Both the position numbers and the translations under genes were made by a program. Below are positions 59,297 to 64,000 of a stretch of 64,000 nt of DNA, piece by piece. The stretch covers positions 1 through 64,000 of IMG/VR virus record IMGVR_UViG_3300031413_000005. One strand, 5' to 3'. The notes beneath the pieces were generated by a model. It did not search any database and was not told the origin of the DNA. It saw only the letters and a list, made by a program, of their open reading frames with translations. How positions within the stretch are numbered: position 1 is the first letter of the stretch; each line of letters starts with the position of its first letter. Source of the DNA: a virus.

Positions 59297-62200
59297 TTAG
59301 ATCCCCAGCCTGACGGCGCGTTGACCGTTAGAATAGTAAACGTCGACCCCAGCGGCGCCGATGGTCGTCGATCCGTTCCCGTTAGCCCCGGTGATGCGGA
59401 CGTCACCAATGATGTCGACGCCAGCGCCGGCATTCGCATCTGCCCAGACCCGCATCTGCGCGCGGTTGTTGCCGGCGACCGACTGCACCTGCCAATAGGC
59501 GGACGCGCGGCCCTTGAGATCTGCAACCGCGCCCTCTGCGGTGGTCACGCGCGCGAGGAGGTTCGACTGCTCGACCTTCTTGGACGCGATCTCGCCTGCG
59601 GTGGATGGACGCATGACGATGCGGTGCCAGATCGTGCGCAGGAAGCCATAGCCGCCCGCGCCGGTAAAGCCCGTCCACCCGGCCATCAGATAGAGGTTCA
59701 CGCCCGGCGACTGCGCGCCGTTGTAAAACATGAAAGTGAACTTGCGCTGGGCATTGCCGATATTGCCGATGCGGTCAGCGGTATCCGCGTTGTTGTGGAA
59801 GCCGTATTCGACCGAGTATCCGTTGTTGAACTGGCAATGGACGCCCGCACCGGACCAGTTGCCATCCTGGCCCTCGACATCGACCTCAAAGGTGTACCAG
59901 CCGGGAGGCATCTTGCCCAACGCCTGCGTCAGCCCGTTCTGGTTTCCCTGACGGTCGATTTGGAGTGGATAGCGCGCGCCATACTGGGAACCGCCTGCCC
60001 CATACGGCCCGTAATACGCGTTTGCGTCCTGCGCCCACATCGACCAGCCTTGAGGCATGTGCCAGCCGCCATCATAGATCCAGTTCACGTCGGGCTGGGT
60101 GAACGTCCCGTTGCGCACGAGATTGTTGCTGTCGTAGCCCACCGACGCCTCGACGATCGACGTGCGGCCGGCTGCGACGCTATCCGCATTCGCGCGGGCG
60201 ACGGCCTCGTTGTAGATCCGCGTGTTGAGCTCGCTGTCCTGCGCACCGCGAAGCTGAGCCTCAACAGTGTCGGCGCGGGTAGCGAGAGCGCTGTCACGCG
60301 CGAGGCGGGTGTCTTCTTCGGTTTTCACGCGAGCGGTGAGCGACACGACGCTCGCTGCCGCCTTGCCAGCTTCGATCTCGCCGACACTTGCCGGGCGAAG
60401 TGTAAGTCGACCCCACTTGATATACTTCGACGCACGGTAGCGGCCGAACCCGGTCCAGCTGTGCATGCAGTGCAGGTTCATTTCGCTGTAGGCCCCGATG
60501 TCGATCATCTTGGTCCACGTCCGAATTTCCATGTTCGCGCTGTCGCCCACGCGCCCAGTCGTGTCCGGGTCGGAGAGGAAGTCGAGGTTGTAGACGCCGC
60601 TCAGCGTGACGCCAGCACCCGACAGGCTACCGGAGACGCGCTGTGCGGTCACCTCGATGACCCACTTGCCCGCATGGACGGGGACGGTCTGGTAGATGCC
60701 GCACTCTGCGTTTTCGATGTTCGTCGTGTAGGCCGCGTAGGGACTGCCAACCATGCCGCCTGGCTCGCGGCCGATACCCCACTGGCCTTCCGTGACCCAC
60801 GCCGCCCATCCGGTCGGGTAGACCTGACCGTAGGGCCAGATCGCGAACTTGTCGTTTTTGCCTGTGCCCGATCCGATCGTCGCCGTGCTCTCGATCCCCG
60901 ACACACGGTTCCCCATCGTCACGTCCGCATCGGTTCGCGCGATCGTCTCGTTGTAGATGCGGGTGTTGAGCTCGCTGTCACGAGCGCCGCGAAGCTGCGC
61001 CTCGATCACGTCGGAACGCGATGCGAGCGCACGGTTGGCGTCCGCTGCGGTCGTGGCGTTCTCGATGATCGTGGCGTTGAGCTTGGTCTGCTCGGCCACA
61101 TTGCTGCCCGGCGTGTAAGGCACGGCCTCGGTGATACCGGGGCGGATTTTCACTAGCTGCGGGCGCAAGAACCAAGCGTAGCTGTTACCACCGGACGTCG
61201 TGCCGTGCTTCATCAGGTATATGCGGACCCAAGAATATCCGGCCGGCACAGTGAACGTGACTACGGTGCGCTTGTAGGTGCTCAACAGCTTGGCGTCGGC
61301 ATCCAGAGGCACAGTCACCTTTTCCCCGAGGAACAAGCCAGCGTTAGCTGGCGTGAAACCGTCGATGTAGATGCCCGTGTTGCATCGGTGAGAGTATGAG
61401 TAGACCGTCGCCTGATAGGTCGCCCCCGGCTCCAGGCCATGCACGTCTTGCGACCAGTGCCCCGCGCGCGCGGTGCTCGCATTTTCCTGCCCGATGACGA
61501 GCGCGTTCATGTTGTTGGGCCACCAAATATTGGCGGTGATACCGTTGCGCGCGCCAATGGAGCCTGCTTCCGGCGTAAAGCCCCAGCCCTCGTTGCCGGT
61601 GGTCCATTCGGTATTCGACAGAAGGTTGGAGCTGGTGCCCGCGCTCGCCTCGATAACGGAGGTCCGACCGGCCAGAACGCGATCGGCTTCCGCGAGCGTG
61701 CTGCGGTTCTCCTCGATCTTGGCCGACATCGGCGACGCGGTGGTCATGGCGACCTTGCTCTCGAGCGACGTGGTCCGATCCGCTACGGCTTTGGTCGCCG
61801 CGGCGGACACGATCGAGCTGTCCGTGATTGCTGCGTTTGCGGCTGCGATCGCGAACTTCTCGGAGCCCGGCGAGTAAGGTATCCACCCGGTCTGGCCTTC
61901 ATTGGCGACACCAATGAACGGGCGCCAGATCCAGACGTACGTGTCATTCAGACCGGTGCCATAGGTGCGAAGGCAGATCCGGGCCGAGACCGTGTTTGGC
62001 GGTGCTTTTACCGACTTTACGCCAGTCTGGTCCCATTGCTTGGGATCCTTGCCGCCTGCATCGACGCGCGCTCCGACGTTCTCGCCACCGTAGCCGGTGA
62101 AGGCCCCGTTTACGTCGTAGAACATGATGGAGACCCAAGCACGGCTTCGGTGGCTCGCGGTCATGGCGTAACACTGGTAGAACTCGCCCGCGCTGACCGG

Positions 62201-63568
62201 GATCGGTTCGCTGACGACTTCCATGATGCTGCCGGTCGGCGCTTTGCTTTGGCGCATCGCGAGGGCGTTTTCACCGATTGGGTGCCAGTCATCGCTAGGC
62301 GCGTTGATGACAATCACGCCACCATTAGGATTGTTGGTGATCGAGTAGCCGCGCAGGGTCTCAAAGGCGGTGTTCTGCAAGAGGTTACCACCACCCGTTG
62401 CCCGCGCCTCGAGAGCAGCCGTGCGGCCGGCGATCGCCCGCGTCGCATCTGCCGCGGCGGTCGATGCGTCACGAATGCTTGCCGCAAGCGGGCTGTCTTG
62501 TTTGCCGTCCAGCTTCGCCTCGACGACGCTCGTCCGGTTCGCGACCGCCGATACGGTCGTCGCGCGCACCGCCTTTTCGTCCTCGATCGCAGCCGCGTTG
62601 CTCGAAACGTCTTTCTGGACGAGTGCCTGCTTGTCGCGCAGCACCGCATCCTCTCCAGTTGAGCGCGCAATCTCGTTGGCGAGGTTGTTGCGAACGCCCG
62701 CCAAGTCGCCTTCCAGCTCGGTGCGCGCGTCAGTCAGATCCTGATTTGCCTGATCGATCTCGAGACCAGCTGCTGCTGCGGCCGCGCGCGCCTGGCGAGC
62801 CTCCTGAAATGCCTTGGCGACTTCCGCCATCGCTTCGGAAATGCGAACCTGTGCGTCGGTGAGCTCCTCGACGATCTCGACCGCGGGCTTGCCGCCAACG
62901 GCGTTCGTGTCCTTCGAGGTGTTGTCGCCGGTGACGTCTGCGTTGTCGTCAGGCTTGTTTGCGCCGGTGACGCCGTCCCACTTCGCGAGCTGGGCGGCGC
63001 GATCGGCGATCATGGCGTCGAGATCGGCCAGCGCCGACACGGCTGCTGCGTAAGAGGTCTGGAAGGTCGCGGCGTTGATCGGCGTGTCCTTCGACATATC
63101 GTTATACGCCGGGACGAGGCTCACGATATAGTCGGTCCACGCCTTCGTCGCGACGTTGGAGGCGTCGATGTAGGCGTCGATCCCGCCCAGCTGTCGCGCT
63201 TTCGCGGCCGAAGCCGACGACGAGGCCAGCAGCTGCGAATGCACCAGCGAAAGCTGCGGCTTTTCTGCACGCGACAGTATGTTGTCGGCCGTCATCCCGC
63301 GAATGTCCGAGATGACCTGGCTCGCCGCGACGTCCATAATCGTGCCGGTGATGTTGCCGTTGAACGACACCCGCACGCTGGGCCGGTAGCGCGTGTTCTT
63401 CGCTGGCGTGAGCGGCGAGTAGACGACGCCGTCGGCGTTGATGTCAGAGTCGACCCGGCGATATGCGCGCACGCTGAAGTCGTAAAAGCGGTCTGCCGCC
63501 ATGCCGGGCAGGATGACAGACCGCTTGTTCGGCTGGATGAAAACGCTGGTATCGGTGGGATTTGCCAT
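59297..63568 (-). CDS. central tail fibre, C-terminal part (gpJ-like; carbohydrate-binding-like repeats)
   Basis: Half-FN3 N-terminus, coiled coils alternating with four NLL.N..F beta domains, VRLG end; start 63568 or 63592. Confidence 0.8.
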   Translation of the reverse strand: MANPTDTSVFIQPNKRSVILPGMAADRFYDFSVRAYRRVDSDINADGVVYSPLTPAKNTRYRPSVRVSFNGNITGTIMDVAASQVISDIRGMTADNILSRAEKPQLSLVHSQLLASSSASAAKARQLGGIDAYIDASNVATKAWTDYIVSLVPAYNDMSKDTPINAATFQTSYAAAVSALADLDAMIADRAAQLAKWDGVTGANKPDDNADVTGDNTSKDTNAVGGKPAVEIVEELTDAQVRISEAMAEVAKAFQEARQARAAAAAAGLEIDQANQDLTDARTELEGDLAGVRNNLANEIARSTGEDAVLRDKQALVQKDVSSNAAAIEDEKAVRATTVSAVANRTSVVEAKLDGKQDSPLAASIRDASTAAADATRAIAGRTAALEARATGGGNLLQNTAFETLRGYSITNNPNGGVIVINAPSDDWHPIGENALAMRQSKAPTGSIMEVVSEPIPVSAGEFYQCYAMTASHRSRAWVSIMFYDVNGAFTGYGGENVGARVDAGGKDPKQWDQTGVKSVKAPPNTVSARICLRTYGTGLNDTYVWIWRPFIGVANEGQTGWIPYSPGSEKFAIAAANAAITDSSIVSAAATKAVADRTTSLESKVAMTTASPMSAKIEENRSTLAEADRVLAGRTSVIEASAGTSSNLLSNTEWTTGNEGWGFTPEAGSIGARNGITANIWWPNNMNALVIGQENASTARAGHWSQDVHGLEPGATYQATVYSYSHRCNTGIYIDGFTPANAGLFLGEKVTVPLDADAKLLSTYKRTVVTFTVPAGYSWVRIYLMKHGTTSGGNSYAWFLRPQLVKIRPGITEAVPYTPGSNVAEQTKLNATIIENATTAADANRALASRSDVIEAQLRGARDSELNTRIYNETIARTDADVTMGNRVSGIESTATIGSGTGKNDKFAIWPYGQVYPTGWAAWVTEGQWGIGREPGGMVGSPYAAYTTNIENAECGIYQTVPVHAGKWVIEVTAQRVSGSLSGAGVTLSGVYNLDFLSDPDTTGRVGDSANMEIRTWTKMIDIGAYSEMNLHCMHSWTGFGRYRASKYIKWGRLTLRPASVGEIEAGKAAASVVSLTARVKTEEDTRLARDSALATRADTVEAQLRGAQDSELNTRIYNEAVARANADSVAAGRTSIVEASVGYDSNNLVRNGTFTQPDVNWIYDGGWHMPQGWSMWAQDANAYYGPYGAGGSQYGARYPLQIDRQGNQNGLTQALGKMPPGWYTFEVDVEGQDGNWSGAGVHCQFNNGYSVEYGFHNNADTADRIGNIGNAQRKFTFMFYNGAQSPGVNLYLMAGWTGFTGAGGYGFLRTIWHRIVMRPSTAGEIASKKVEQSNLLARVTTAEGAVADLKGRASAYWQVQSVAGNNRAQMRVWADANAGAGVDIIGDVRITGANGNGSTTIGAAGVDVYYSNGQRAVRLGI

Positions 63569-63575
63569 GGCGCGG

Positions 63576-63612
63576 ATAATACCAGATTGCATGTGTGTTA
63601 TCTACCATGCAC
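63576..63612 (-). promoter_or_regulatory. promoter + operator between the two tail genes
   Basis: TAGATA-17-(TGG)TATTAT; ATG 7 nt downstream; motif at 63588-63612. Confidence 0.6.
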
Positions 63613-64000
63613 TTAGGACGCCGTGCTCCTCCAGGTAACCTCGAAGCCGTCGATCGTCGCTTCGTCGCCGCCCCACCCGAACTCGAAGCTGATGTCTGCC
63701 GAGCCGTCGGTGTTGATGACGTGCTCGACATCGGTAGCGGCATCGGTTGTCGGCGCGACGATCGGGTCAGGGTTCCGATTATTCCACTTCGAGAAATCCT
63801 GCATGTTCGTAGGCGCAACCGCGATGGTGAACTCCTTCGTCACCCAAGGCGAGATCGAGTTTTCCGCGACCGCGCGCACCTGAACGACATAGGCTCCCGT
63901 CTGAAGACCGTTCATTGCGCACCGCGTCTGGGTGTGGCTCCCAAGGCTCAACCATTCGGTCTCGACCTTGCGCCGATACTGAGCCTCGTAACCGGTCACC
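63613..64000 (-). CDS. tail tip protein (gpJ-like, FN3 repeats), 5' truncated by window
   Basis: GYEAQYR...GLQTGAYVVQVRAV FN3 motif. Confidence 0.75.
   Translation of the reverse strand, partial: VTGYEAQYRRKVETEWLSLGSHTQTRCAMNGLQTGAYVVQVRAVAENSISPWVTKEFTIAVAPTNMQDFSKWNNRNPDPIVAPTTDAATDVEHVINTDGSADISFEFGWGGDEATIDGFEVTWRSTAS

What the first reader, a model, noticed from the sequence alone, without database searches (positions are those of the whole stretch)
63400..63800. A fibronectin-III domain split between two tail genes, with an operator and leaderless promoter in the gap
Seen: the upstream tail-tip ORF stops at ...SADISFEFGW...IDGFEVTWRSTAS* (FN3 strands A-B-C). The next ORF, in a different frame, begins MANPTDTSVFIQPNKRSVILPGMAADRFYDFSVRAYR...GVVYS (strands C'-E-F-G, with the L.G....Y.F.VRA signature). 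The 44-nt gap holds a full 25-bp motif and TAGATA-17-TGG-TATTAT, with an ATG 7 nt later. The downstream protein ends like a gpJ C-terminus. Inference: the central fibre is made as two chains rejoined by FN3 fragment complementation, a natural split-domain connector allowing separate control and swapping of the receptor-binding half.
Basis: partly seen in the sequence, partly recalled or inferred. Interest (0 to 1): 0.75.

Follow-up and report, generated by a model that had tools for sequence, protein, structure and literature searches.

The report
Tail fibre joined by split domain
In this Sphingomonas-type phage and its relatives, one small fibronectin-like domain is encoded half at the end of the tail-hub gene and half at the start of the next fibre gene, with a promoter between them, so the two proteins most likely fasten together by rebuilding that domain.

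Summary
The gpJ-like hub gene (63613..67269, minus strand) ends with positions 2-63 of Pfam DUF7359, an FN3-like domain. The next gene (59297..63568) begins with positions 79-123. No other copy exists in the 109-kb genome. Two independent metagenome assemblies bridge the junction without indels, so it is not an assembly error.

The cut is conserved. Five related loci, two of them from Sphingomonas genomes, three further hub proteins and 20 further fibre protein clusters are cut in the same C-C' loop. Distant relatives, including single gpJ-like proteins, carry the domain whole. The split proteins group together on a tree, and both halves are equally conserved.

An AlphaFold model of a relative's two halves, read through its single in-frame stop, gives one FN3 fold (Z 11, rmsd about 2 A over 93-99 residues). 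Its alignment was mostly fused homologues, so it shows compatibility, not binding.

The 44-nt gap holds a genome-wide 24-nt element, an extended -10 box and the ATG 7 nt later. The same layout occurs in relatives and before two other late genes, which suggests a leaderless late promoter.

Not supported: any likeness of the fibre's C-terminus to lambda gpJ. Physical complementation and the transcription start are untested. This scan has noted split FN3 fibre joints in other phages.

The parts
63613..64000 (-). 3' end of the tail-hub gene. The whole gene is 63613..67269, 1218 aa, and runs beyond the window. It is gpJ-like with a gpI-like N-terminal region.
   Evidence: phrog_31 central tail fiber J 7.7e-105, phrog_32 tail assembly protein 2.2e-12, PF24801 and PF00041; lambda J residues 153-526 align at 1e-11.
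63619..63795 (-). N-terminal half of the DUF7359/FN3-like domain (strands A, B, C). It ends 3-5 residues before the stop.
   Evidence: PF24058 profile positions 2-64, E 6.5e-11; own HMM positions 2-57.
63613..63615 (-). TAA stop of the hub gene, 1 nt before the 24-nt element.
63588..63611 (-). 24-nt element TGCATG-N12-CATGCA. It is oriented with transcription and has 37 copies in the genome.
   Evidence: The same element lies in the orthologous gap of L005, L006 and L007.
63576..63584 (-). Extended -10-like box TGGTATTAT. With TAGATA (63604-63599) 17 nt upstream it fits a sigma-70 pattern.
   Evidence: The same TGGTATGAT box follows the element at 67662 and 85494. Relatives have TATAAT, TATACT or GATAAT 6-7 nt before the start codon.
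63566..63568 (-). ATG start of the fibre gene, 7 nt after the -10 box, with no Shine-Dalgarno sequence.
   Evidence: Database gene call P0004 and 7 homologues start at this residue.
63416..63550 (-). C-terminal half of the DUF7359/FN3-like domain (strands C', E, F, G).
   Evidence: PF24058 profile positions 79-123, E 1.3e-12; own HMM positions 72-118.
62840..63568 (-). Conserved N-terminal anchor region of the fibre protein (about 243 aa). It is shared by all split-type relatives.
   Evidence: 35-55% identity over query residues 9-250 in 20 cluster representatives that begin here.
59297..63568 (-). Distal fibre gene (1423 aa from ATG 63568). Long alanine-rich stretches alternate with repeated segments, including one duplicated stretch.
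   Evidence: translation; no PDB or lambda J similarity.

Best explanation
The central tail fibre is made from two gene products. The hub protein (gpI/gpJ-like, 1218 aa) ends with strands A-B-C of an FN3-like DUF7359 domain. The distal fibre protein (1423 aa) begins with strands C'-E-F-G. After translation the halves most likely interdigitate into one beta-sandwich. By the canonical FN3 topology, each of its two sheets would hold strands from both chains. That would fasten three fibre chains to the three hub chains without a covalent link.

The cut lies in the C-C' surface loop. About 14 profile positions, including a conserved YxFG motif, have been replaced by a stop codon, a 24-nt regulatory element, an extended -10 box and a start codon. 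The fibre gene would therefore also be transcribed from its own late promoter as a leaderless or nearly leaderless mRNA.

The conserved 240-residue N-terminus would act as a standard plug, and the rest of the fibre varies freely.

Shown: the split, its conservation, its probable single origin, the fused ancestral-type form, and the cassette layout. Inferred: co-folding of the two chains, promoter activity, and the leaderless start.
For: - One Pfam domain is divided between the two ORFs, and the genome holds only this one pair.
- The same cut occurs in L004/L084 (Sphingomonas sp. NFR04), L085 (a Sphingomonas MAG), L005, L006 and L007.
- It also occurs in three more hub proteins and in 20 further fibre cluster representatives that begin at HMM positions 72-90.
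- 89 other proteins with the domain, and every other domain-bearing locus, carry it whole.
- Single-chain equivalents exist, such as P0144: FNIII-A_GpJ + Phage-tail_3 + nearly whole DUF7359 (profile 13-123) + fibre-like region.
- The 20 split proteins form one group on a maximum-likelihood tree (85/69), made of two strongly supported subclades with end branches of 0.06-0.7.
- The two halves are equally conserved: pairwise identity 39-77% for the N-half and 43-75% for the C-half.
- The AF2 model of the L084 read-through gives pLDDT 85-94 for most of the N-half and 77-93 for the C-half, with a disordered linker at 47-50. The model matches complete FN3 domains across both halves: Z 11.0-11.7, rmsd 2.1 A, for example 93 of 93 residues of 2rb8. 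Foldseek's listed matches are FN3 domains or FN3-bearing receptors.
- Independent assemblies reproduce the junction.
- The cassette layout (element, then -10 box, then 6-8 nt, then ATG or GTG) is conserved in the orthologous gaps. It also stands before the portal and gpK-like genes of this phage.
Against: - No experiment shows that the halves bind.
- The confident AF2 model used an alignment made mostly of fused homologues, so it shows compatibility rather than independent co-folding. The single-sequence run was uninformative (mean pLDDT 47.7).
- The model is of a relative (48-57% identical in the two half-domains), not of this phage, whose two ORFs are in different frames.
- No RNA data were found, so the promoter and the leaderless start rest on sequence pattern alone.
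- The spacing between the 24-nt element and the -10 box varies from 0 to 6 nt among relatives. The element's own role is therefore unclear.
Confidence: 0.75

Rival explanations
1. The gene really is split, but the halves do not rebuild one domain. The hub's three C-terminal strands would be a tolerated remnant, or would pair with something else. The fibre would attach through other contacts, for example through its conserved residues 60-240.
For: Binding is untested. The conserved YxFG loop was lost. Residues 60-240 of the fibre are also conserved and could carry the attachment. In T5 the hub and fibre are joined only by loops between whole FN3 domains (PMC10038345).
Against: A useless remnant should decay or be trimmed. 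Instead, every hub protein of the lineage found here keeps the N-half, ending 3-9 residues after strand C. It is as conserved as the C-half, and each half still scores above Pfam's cut-off. Only one pair exists in the genome. The linked model folds as one FN3.
Confidence: 0.15
2. A single polypeptide is made by recoding, either translational bypass of the gap (as in T4 gene 60) or stop-codon read-through.
For: In this phage the last sense codon TCC, then TAA, is followed 29 nt later by an in-frame TCT. The gap element has inverted arms. A hop would restore roughly the right loop length (reading). In L084 and L007 the two ORFs are in one frame, separated by a single TAA.
Against: Frame offsets among six lineages are 0, 0, 0, 1, 2, 2, close to what chance gives, and L085 has two stops in frame. 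Gap lengths vary from 41 to 66 nt. A -1 shift runs into TAG. What is conserved is a start codon at a fixed distance from a -10 box. The predicted fold of the gap RNA is no more stable than shuffles (z -0.38). The same cassette separates unrelated genes.
Confidence: 0.03
3. Recent disruption, pseudogene or assembly error.
For: The two ORFs are in different frames, and a repeated element sits exactly at the break.
Against: Two independent metagenome assemblies carry the same junction with no indels. The cut is shared by relatives only 35-55% identical over the fibre's conserved N-terminal region. Both flanking ORFs are long and intact.
Confidence: 0.01

Closest known systems
Lactococcus phage Tuc2009 baseplate tripod, BppU C-terminal hairpin with BppA domain 2 (crystal structure, PMC4742702)
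   Same: Two separate phage adhesion-device proteins share one small beta-sandwich. The 25-residue C-terminal hairpin of BppU completes a sheet of BppA, and the composite domain resembles a titin domain.
   Different: There, 2 strands are donated to an almost complete domain of an accessory protein. Here the cut is mid-domain (3 + 4 strands) and lies between the gpJ-like hub and the central fibre. It has an evident fused ancestral form and a promoter in the gap. The present case is not structurally solved.
Phage T5 central fibre, BHP pb3 and pb4 (PMC10038345)
   Same: A siphophage hub protein ends in FN3 domains, and a second protein continues the FN3 string to form the central fibre, in three parallel strings.
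   Different: In T5 the boundary lies between whole FN3 domains (2 + 3). Contact is through loops and the pb4 N-terminus. Here the boundary runs through one domain.
Phage lambda gpJ and other single-chain gpJ-like proteins, such as database protein P0144
   Same: The hub region is homologous. Single-chain relatives carry hub, whole DUF7359 and the same post-domain region in one protein.
   Different: Those are one polypeptide. Lambda J itself shows no detectable similarity to the distal fibre protein.
Insulin receptor FnIII-2 domain (two-chain FN3 after furin cleavage of the insert domain)
   Same: An FN3 domain whose first and last strands end up on two polypeptides. The model aligns to IR residues 594-809 across a large insertion. 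The furin site at 720-723 lies inside that span (PMC7039211). That the insert sits in the C-C' loop is from my own knowledge (McKern et al. 2006).
   Different: It is made as one chain that folds and is then cleaved, and the chains are also disulfide-linked. Here there are two genes and two translations, so the domain must assemble in trans.
Donor-strand complementation in chaperone-usher and type V pili (own knowledge)
   Same: An incomplete Ig-like fold in one subunit is completed by strands from another, which gives very stable non-covalent joints.
   Different: Pili donate a single strand and polymerise. Here half a domain is contributed by each of two different proteins, once.

Membership tests
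Pfam DUF7359 (PF24058), FN3-like domain of phage tail proteins | Match above the curated gathering score | tested here: met
   Hub protein 34.2 bits and fibre protein 41.4 bits against a cut-off of 27.5; 38.7 and 44.1 bits in the genome search.
Pfam DUF7359 (PF24058), FN3-like domain of phage tail proteins | The whole 123-position domain lies in one polypeptide | tested here: not met
   Positions 2-63 lie in one ORF and 79-123 in the next. Positions 64-78 have no counterpart.
Fibronectin type III fold | Seven-strand beta-sandwich that superposes on solved FN3 domains | tested here: met
   Tested for a relative (L084), with the halves linked through the gap. Strands at 42-46, 51-57, 69-78 | 107-112, 117-124, 127-139, 148-150. 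Z 10.3-11.7, rmsd about 2 A, 90-111 residues aligned across model 29-165. Not modelled for this phage itself.
Lambda gpJ-like tail tip / hub protein | Homology of the upstream protein to the gpJ hub domains | tested here: met
   phrog_31 7.7e-105, PF24801 5.2e-11; PF13550 only weakly (14.5 bits, below its cut-off of 23); lambda J 153-526, E 1e-11.
Lambda gpJ-like tail tip / hub protein | The downstream protein carries a gpJ-like C-terminal receptor-binding region | tested here: not met
   Best BLASTP segment against lambda J has E 2.1 and is not at the C-terminus. No Pfam or PDB sequence match. Similarity of fold was not tested.
T5-type two-protein FN3 central fibre | The hub ends and the fibre begins with complete FN3 domains that touch through loops | tested here: not met
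   The hub has one whole fn3 (residues 1061-1142) followed by half a domain. The fibre starts with the other half.
Composite two-chain beta-sandwich joints (Tuc2009 BppU/BppA type) | Strands of one protein complete a sheet of a domain in another protein, as seen in a structure | not testable with these tools
   Only a linked single-chain AF2 model of a relative could be made. No multimer prediction or structure is available.
Leaderless sigma-70-type promoter | A -10 box 6-8 nt upstream of the start codon, with no Shine-Dalgarno sequence | tested here: met
   TGGTATTAT + 7 nt + ATG. The same layout occurs in 5 related gaps and at 67618 and 85450.
Leaderless sigma-70-type promoter | Transcript 5' end at the start codon | not testable with these tools
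   No RNA run holds this sequence.
Programmed translational bypass (T4 gene 60 type) | Matched take-off and landing codons, and a reading-frame relation conserved among relatives | tested here: not met
   Frame offsets 0, 0, 0, 1, 2, 2 and gaps of 41-66 nt. Take-off and landing codons were read only in this phage (TCC ... TCT); the relatives were not examined for matched codons.

The most novel reading that the evidence does not exclude
The mid-domain cut was made by the phage's own 24-nt element and promoter cassette landing in a permissive surface loop. On this reading the cassette, which brings a stop codon, a -10 box and a start codon, can move or be copied between gene junctions and can split a gene where the protein tolerates it. 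The resulting two-chain FN3 would also be more than a passive joint. It could serve as an assembly checkpoint, or as a force-sensitive link that parts or rearranges when the fibre binds its receptor, passing the signal to the hub. Evidence that leaves this open: the cassette copies at 63611 and 67662 are identical at 36 of 37 positions, while the orthologous copies in relatives differ. About 14 domain positions are replaced by the cassette. Nothing here tests movement of the cassette or the mechanics of the joint.
Probability: 0.15. Interest if true: 0.85.

Novelty: new variant of a known kind. Interest (0 to 1): 0.62.

Why it matters
Gene fission normally falls between domains. Here a cut through the middle of a small domain has been kept across a phage lineage that has diverged to 35-55% identity. 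That implies the two halves find each other and fold together after separate translation.

If confirmed, this would be a natural, compact (about 55 + 50 residues) split-FN3 plug and socket. It would link the conserved tail hub to an exchangeable receptor-binding fibre.

This matters for three reasons:
- It bears on how siphophage tail tips assemble and how host range evolves.
- It suggests a way to engineer fibres, by keeping the plug and swapping the rest.
- It offers a possible protein-joining tool.

It also gives a clear case where a regulatory cassette sits inside what was once a coding loop. The short strand donation seen in Tuc2009 is the nearest solved precedent. This scan has noted split FN3 fibre joints in other, unrelated phages, so the principle may be widespread.

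Tried and rejected
The genomic context of the database proteins, including the odd P0029, could not be fetched.
- A single-protein search of viral contigs found no relative. blastn and tblastn of the junction region against cultured phages found nothing. The nearest cultured hub proteins are from Pseudomonas phage nickie and its relatives, at 31% identity, and do not reach the split domain.
A smaller one worked.
- Single-sequence AF2 gave mean pLDDT 47.7, which is uninformative.
- The two ORFs of this phage are in different frames, so its own halves could not be linked and modelled.
- No RNA holder was listed among sequencing runs, so there is no expression or start-site data.
- The RNA fold of the gap is no better than shuffles, which does not support a special hairpin.
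- Simple -1 or +1 frameshifting is rejected, because the -1 frame carries TAG at 63604-63602 and the other frame is not the fibre's. Bypass and read-through are rejected as general mechanisms.
- Literature searches for DUF7359 and for split or complemented domains in tail fibres found no paper describing this. A search for leaderless transcripts in Sphingomonas found nothing useful.
- PDB sequence search with the fibre protein found no match.
Full report
**What is there**

The window is the first 64 kb of a single 109,429-bp virus record, rated 98% complete.

On the minus strand, a 1218-aa ORF (63613..67269) ends ...ISFEFGWGGDEATIDGFEVTWRSTAS-TAA. After a 44-nt gap, a second ORF in another frame reads MANPTDTSVFIQPNKRSVILPGMAADRFYDFSVRAYRRVD....

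The first protein is a gpJ-like tail hub with a gpI-like N-terminal region:
- phrog_31 at 7.7e-105 and phrog_32 at 2.2e-12
- PF24801
- a whole fn3 domain at residues 1061-1142
- lambda J residues 153-526 at 1e-11

The gene order around it is: tape measure, two small genes (the second a gpL-like minor tail protein), a gpK-like gene, hub, fibre, two small genes, three more small ORFs and then the endolysin.

**The split domain is real**

Pfam places residues 1159-1216 of the hub on positions 2-63 of DUF7359 (PF24058, 123 positions). It places residues 15-59 of the fibre on positions 79-123. Both matches are above the curated cut-off.

A six-frame search of the whole genome finds exactly these two partial matches and no other.

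Contigs of two independent metagenome runs from other studies bridge the junction with one or two substitutions and no indels. Assembly error is therefore excluded.

**Comparative evidence**

A phmmer search of 1.84 billion representatives with the first 251 residues of the fibre ORF found 751 relatives.
- Seven of them, 49-55% identical, begin at the residue matching ATG 63568, with M-x-x-P-x-E-T-S-F-Y....
- A dozen more distant ones (35-41%) begin within a few residues of it.

I built a 122-position HMM from 15 loci that carry the domain whole. Of 112 proteins with the domain:
- 89 carry complete internal copies.
- 22, two of them self, begin with HMM positions 72-90 within their first 12 residues.
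- The hub covers positions 2-57.

At the DNA level, the same arrangement is present in five related loci: L004/L084 (a roughly 110-kb element in Sphingomonas sp. NFR04), L085 (a Sphingomonas MAG), L005, L006 and L007. In each, the hub ORF ends 3-9 residues after ...IDGF-x-(V/I)-x-(V/I/W/L), a 41-66-nt gap follows, and the next ORF starts at the C' strand. Three further hub proteins end at the same place.

All more distant loci that carry the domain, including Bacillus prophages, have it uninterrupted. Single-chain equivalents exist. P0144 has FNIII-A_GpJ, Phage-tail_3, a nearly whole DUF7359 (profile 13-123) and then the region homologous to the fibre's N-terminus.

The alignment shows that the cut lies in the C-C' loop. 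The fused ...GFxVYxYxxxxxxxYxFG|(S/T)xPxxE(T)xxY... corresponds to ...GFEVTWRSTAS* | MANPTDTSVF. About 14 positions, including the conserved YxFG, are lost.

On a maximum-likelihood tree of the shared region, the 20 split-type proteins form one group (85/69). It consists of two strongly supported subclades. This fits one origin followed by long retention. Pairwise identities of the two halves are alike: 39-77% and 43-75%.

**Do the halves fit one fold?**

In L084 the two ORFs happen to be in one frame with a single TAA between them. I read that stop as Gly and modelled the 210-residue stretch with an alignment of 24 sequences.
- The two halves are confident: pLDDT 85-94 and 77-93.
- The translated gap is disordered: pLDDT 47-50.
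- Strands fall at 42-46, 51-57, 69-78 | 107-112, 117-124, 127-139, 148-150.

Foldseek's listed matches are FN3 domains or FN3-bearing receptors. VIA-align gives Z 10.3-11.7 at about 2 A over 90-111 residues, spanning model residues 29-165. One example is 93 of 93 residues of a tenascin FN3.

In canonical FN3 topology (sheets A-B-E and C'-C-F-G, established knowledge), each sheet would hold strands from both chains. That would make an interlocked joint.

Three caveats apply. The alignment is mostly fused homologues. A single-sequence run was uninformative. No multimer prediction was possible.

**The gap**

The 24-nt element TGCATG-N12-CATGCA occurs 37 times in the genome and always points with transcription; shuffles give none.

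At three sites it is followed by ATCTGGTAT(G/T)AT, then 7-8 nt, then ATG. These sites precede the portal gene (85450), the gpK-like gene (67618) and the fibre gene (63568). In each case the upstream stop codon lies 1-4 nt before the element. The copies at 63611 and 67662 are identical at 36 of 37 positions.

The consensus scan calls TAGATA-17-TATTAT with a TG extension.

In all five related gaps, a TATAAT, TATACT or GATAAT box lies 6-7 nt before the ATG or GTG. None has a Shine-Dalgarno sequence there. L005, L006 and L007 carry the same 24-nt element, and L084 and L085 carry a variant.

A leaderless or nearly leaderless late transcript is the simplest reading, but no RNA data exist. What the 24-nt element itself does is unresolved: it could be an operator, a promoter element or an RNA signal. 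Its distance to the -10 box varies from 0 to 6 nt among relatives, and its RNA hairpin is not unusually stable.

**Rivals**

- Recoding is unlikely. Frame offsets among lineages are 0, 0, 0, 1, 2, 2, gap lengths vary, L085 has two in-frame stops, and the -1 frame here is closed by TAG.
- A vestigial N-half cannot be excluded without a binding test. It is hard to reconcile with the half's retention and conservation in every hub of the lineage found here.
- Recent disruption and assembly error are refuted.

**Comparison with known systems**

- T5 splits hub and fibre between whole FN3 domains (PMC10038345).
- Tuc2009 shows in a crystal structure that a C-terminal hairpin of BppU completes a sheet of BppA, giving a composite titin-like domain (PMC4742702).
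- The insulin receptor's FnIII-2 becomes a two-chain FN3, but by cleavage after folding (and my own knowledge).

I found no paper describing a mid-domain, two-gene FN3 between a gpJ-like hub and its fibre. Earlier notes of this scan report split FN3 joints in other phage lineages. Those notes are unchecked leads; I used one of them to reach the Tuc2009 paper, which I read.

The fibre protein shows no detectable likeness to lambda gpJ at its C-terminus or elsewhere.

**Host and habitat**

The closest relatives lie in Sphingomonas genomes. Contigs from leaf-litter metagenomes (X2, X3) reproduce the stretch when laid on it. A straw metagenome (X5) covers part of it, and the phyllosphere run X1 may be its source.

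Noticed in passing
genome 66733-67092 (beyond the window; L001:9733-10092), residues 60-179 of the hub protein: The hub ORF begins with a region matching lambda gpI-type tail assembly proteins (phrog_32, 2.2e-12), fused in frame to the gpJ-like part. Hub proteins of relatives have the same length (1210-1242 aa). So I and J appear fused in this lineage, while J is split further on.
   Followed up: partly
window 63576-63612; genome 67627-67663 and 85459-85495: Three cassettes share the 24-nt element plus ATCTGGTAT(G/T)AT, then 7-8 nt, then ATG. Two are identical at 36 of 37 positions, while the orthologous cassettes in relative L005 differ from each other. This suggests copying or gene conversion between junctions within this genome.
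   Followed up: partly
whole genome, 37 sites (window examples 56063-56040, 40528-40505, 13362-13339): The 24-nt element falls into two classes. Many copies have CTTGC(A) about 17 nt upstream of the element's TAGAC, which looks like a -35 box. The late-gene copies instead have a -10 box just downstream. The core GAC(A/G)ACACAC is shared with phages only 40-50% identical in protein.
   Followed up: partly
genome about 91405 (-) and 91533 (+), beyond the window: At the point where gene orientation switches, two divergent ORFs (233 and 522 aa) each have a TAT(C/G)AT box 7 nt before their ATG. These are two more candidate leaderless starts.
   Followed up: no
window about 61030-60960 and 60300-60230 (fibre residues about 855-880 and 1098-1122): The fibre protein contains a near-identical internal repeat (...EAQLRGA(R/Q)DSELNTRIYNE...). 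It also has four segments of the type R-T-S-(V/I)-(I/V)-E-A, each followed by a Trp/Gly/Tyr-rich stretch that was not examined further. This points to internal duplication of a fibre module.
   Followed up: no
L084:4938-5000 and L007:1863-1913: In two relatives the hub and fibre ORFs are in the same frame, separated by a single TAA, so read-through would give a fused chain. This is not conserved in the other four lineages.
   Followed up: yes
database protein P0029 (4145 aa): This protein starts about 27 residues earlier than the other split-type proteins and still carries the YxFG loop. It lies apart from them on the tree. It may be a second, different cut or a miscalled start.
   Followed up: no
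L005:6983-7003, L084:4985-5003: In the fibre's reading frame, the -10 box of some relatives translates as Y-N-A-G or Y-T-P-R, exactly where fused homologues have Y-x-F-G. The box may have arisen from those codons, or this may follow by chance from the fixed 6-nt spacing.
   Followed up: no
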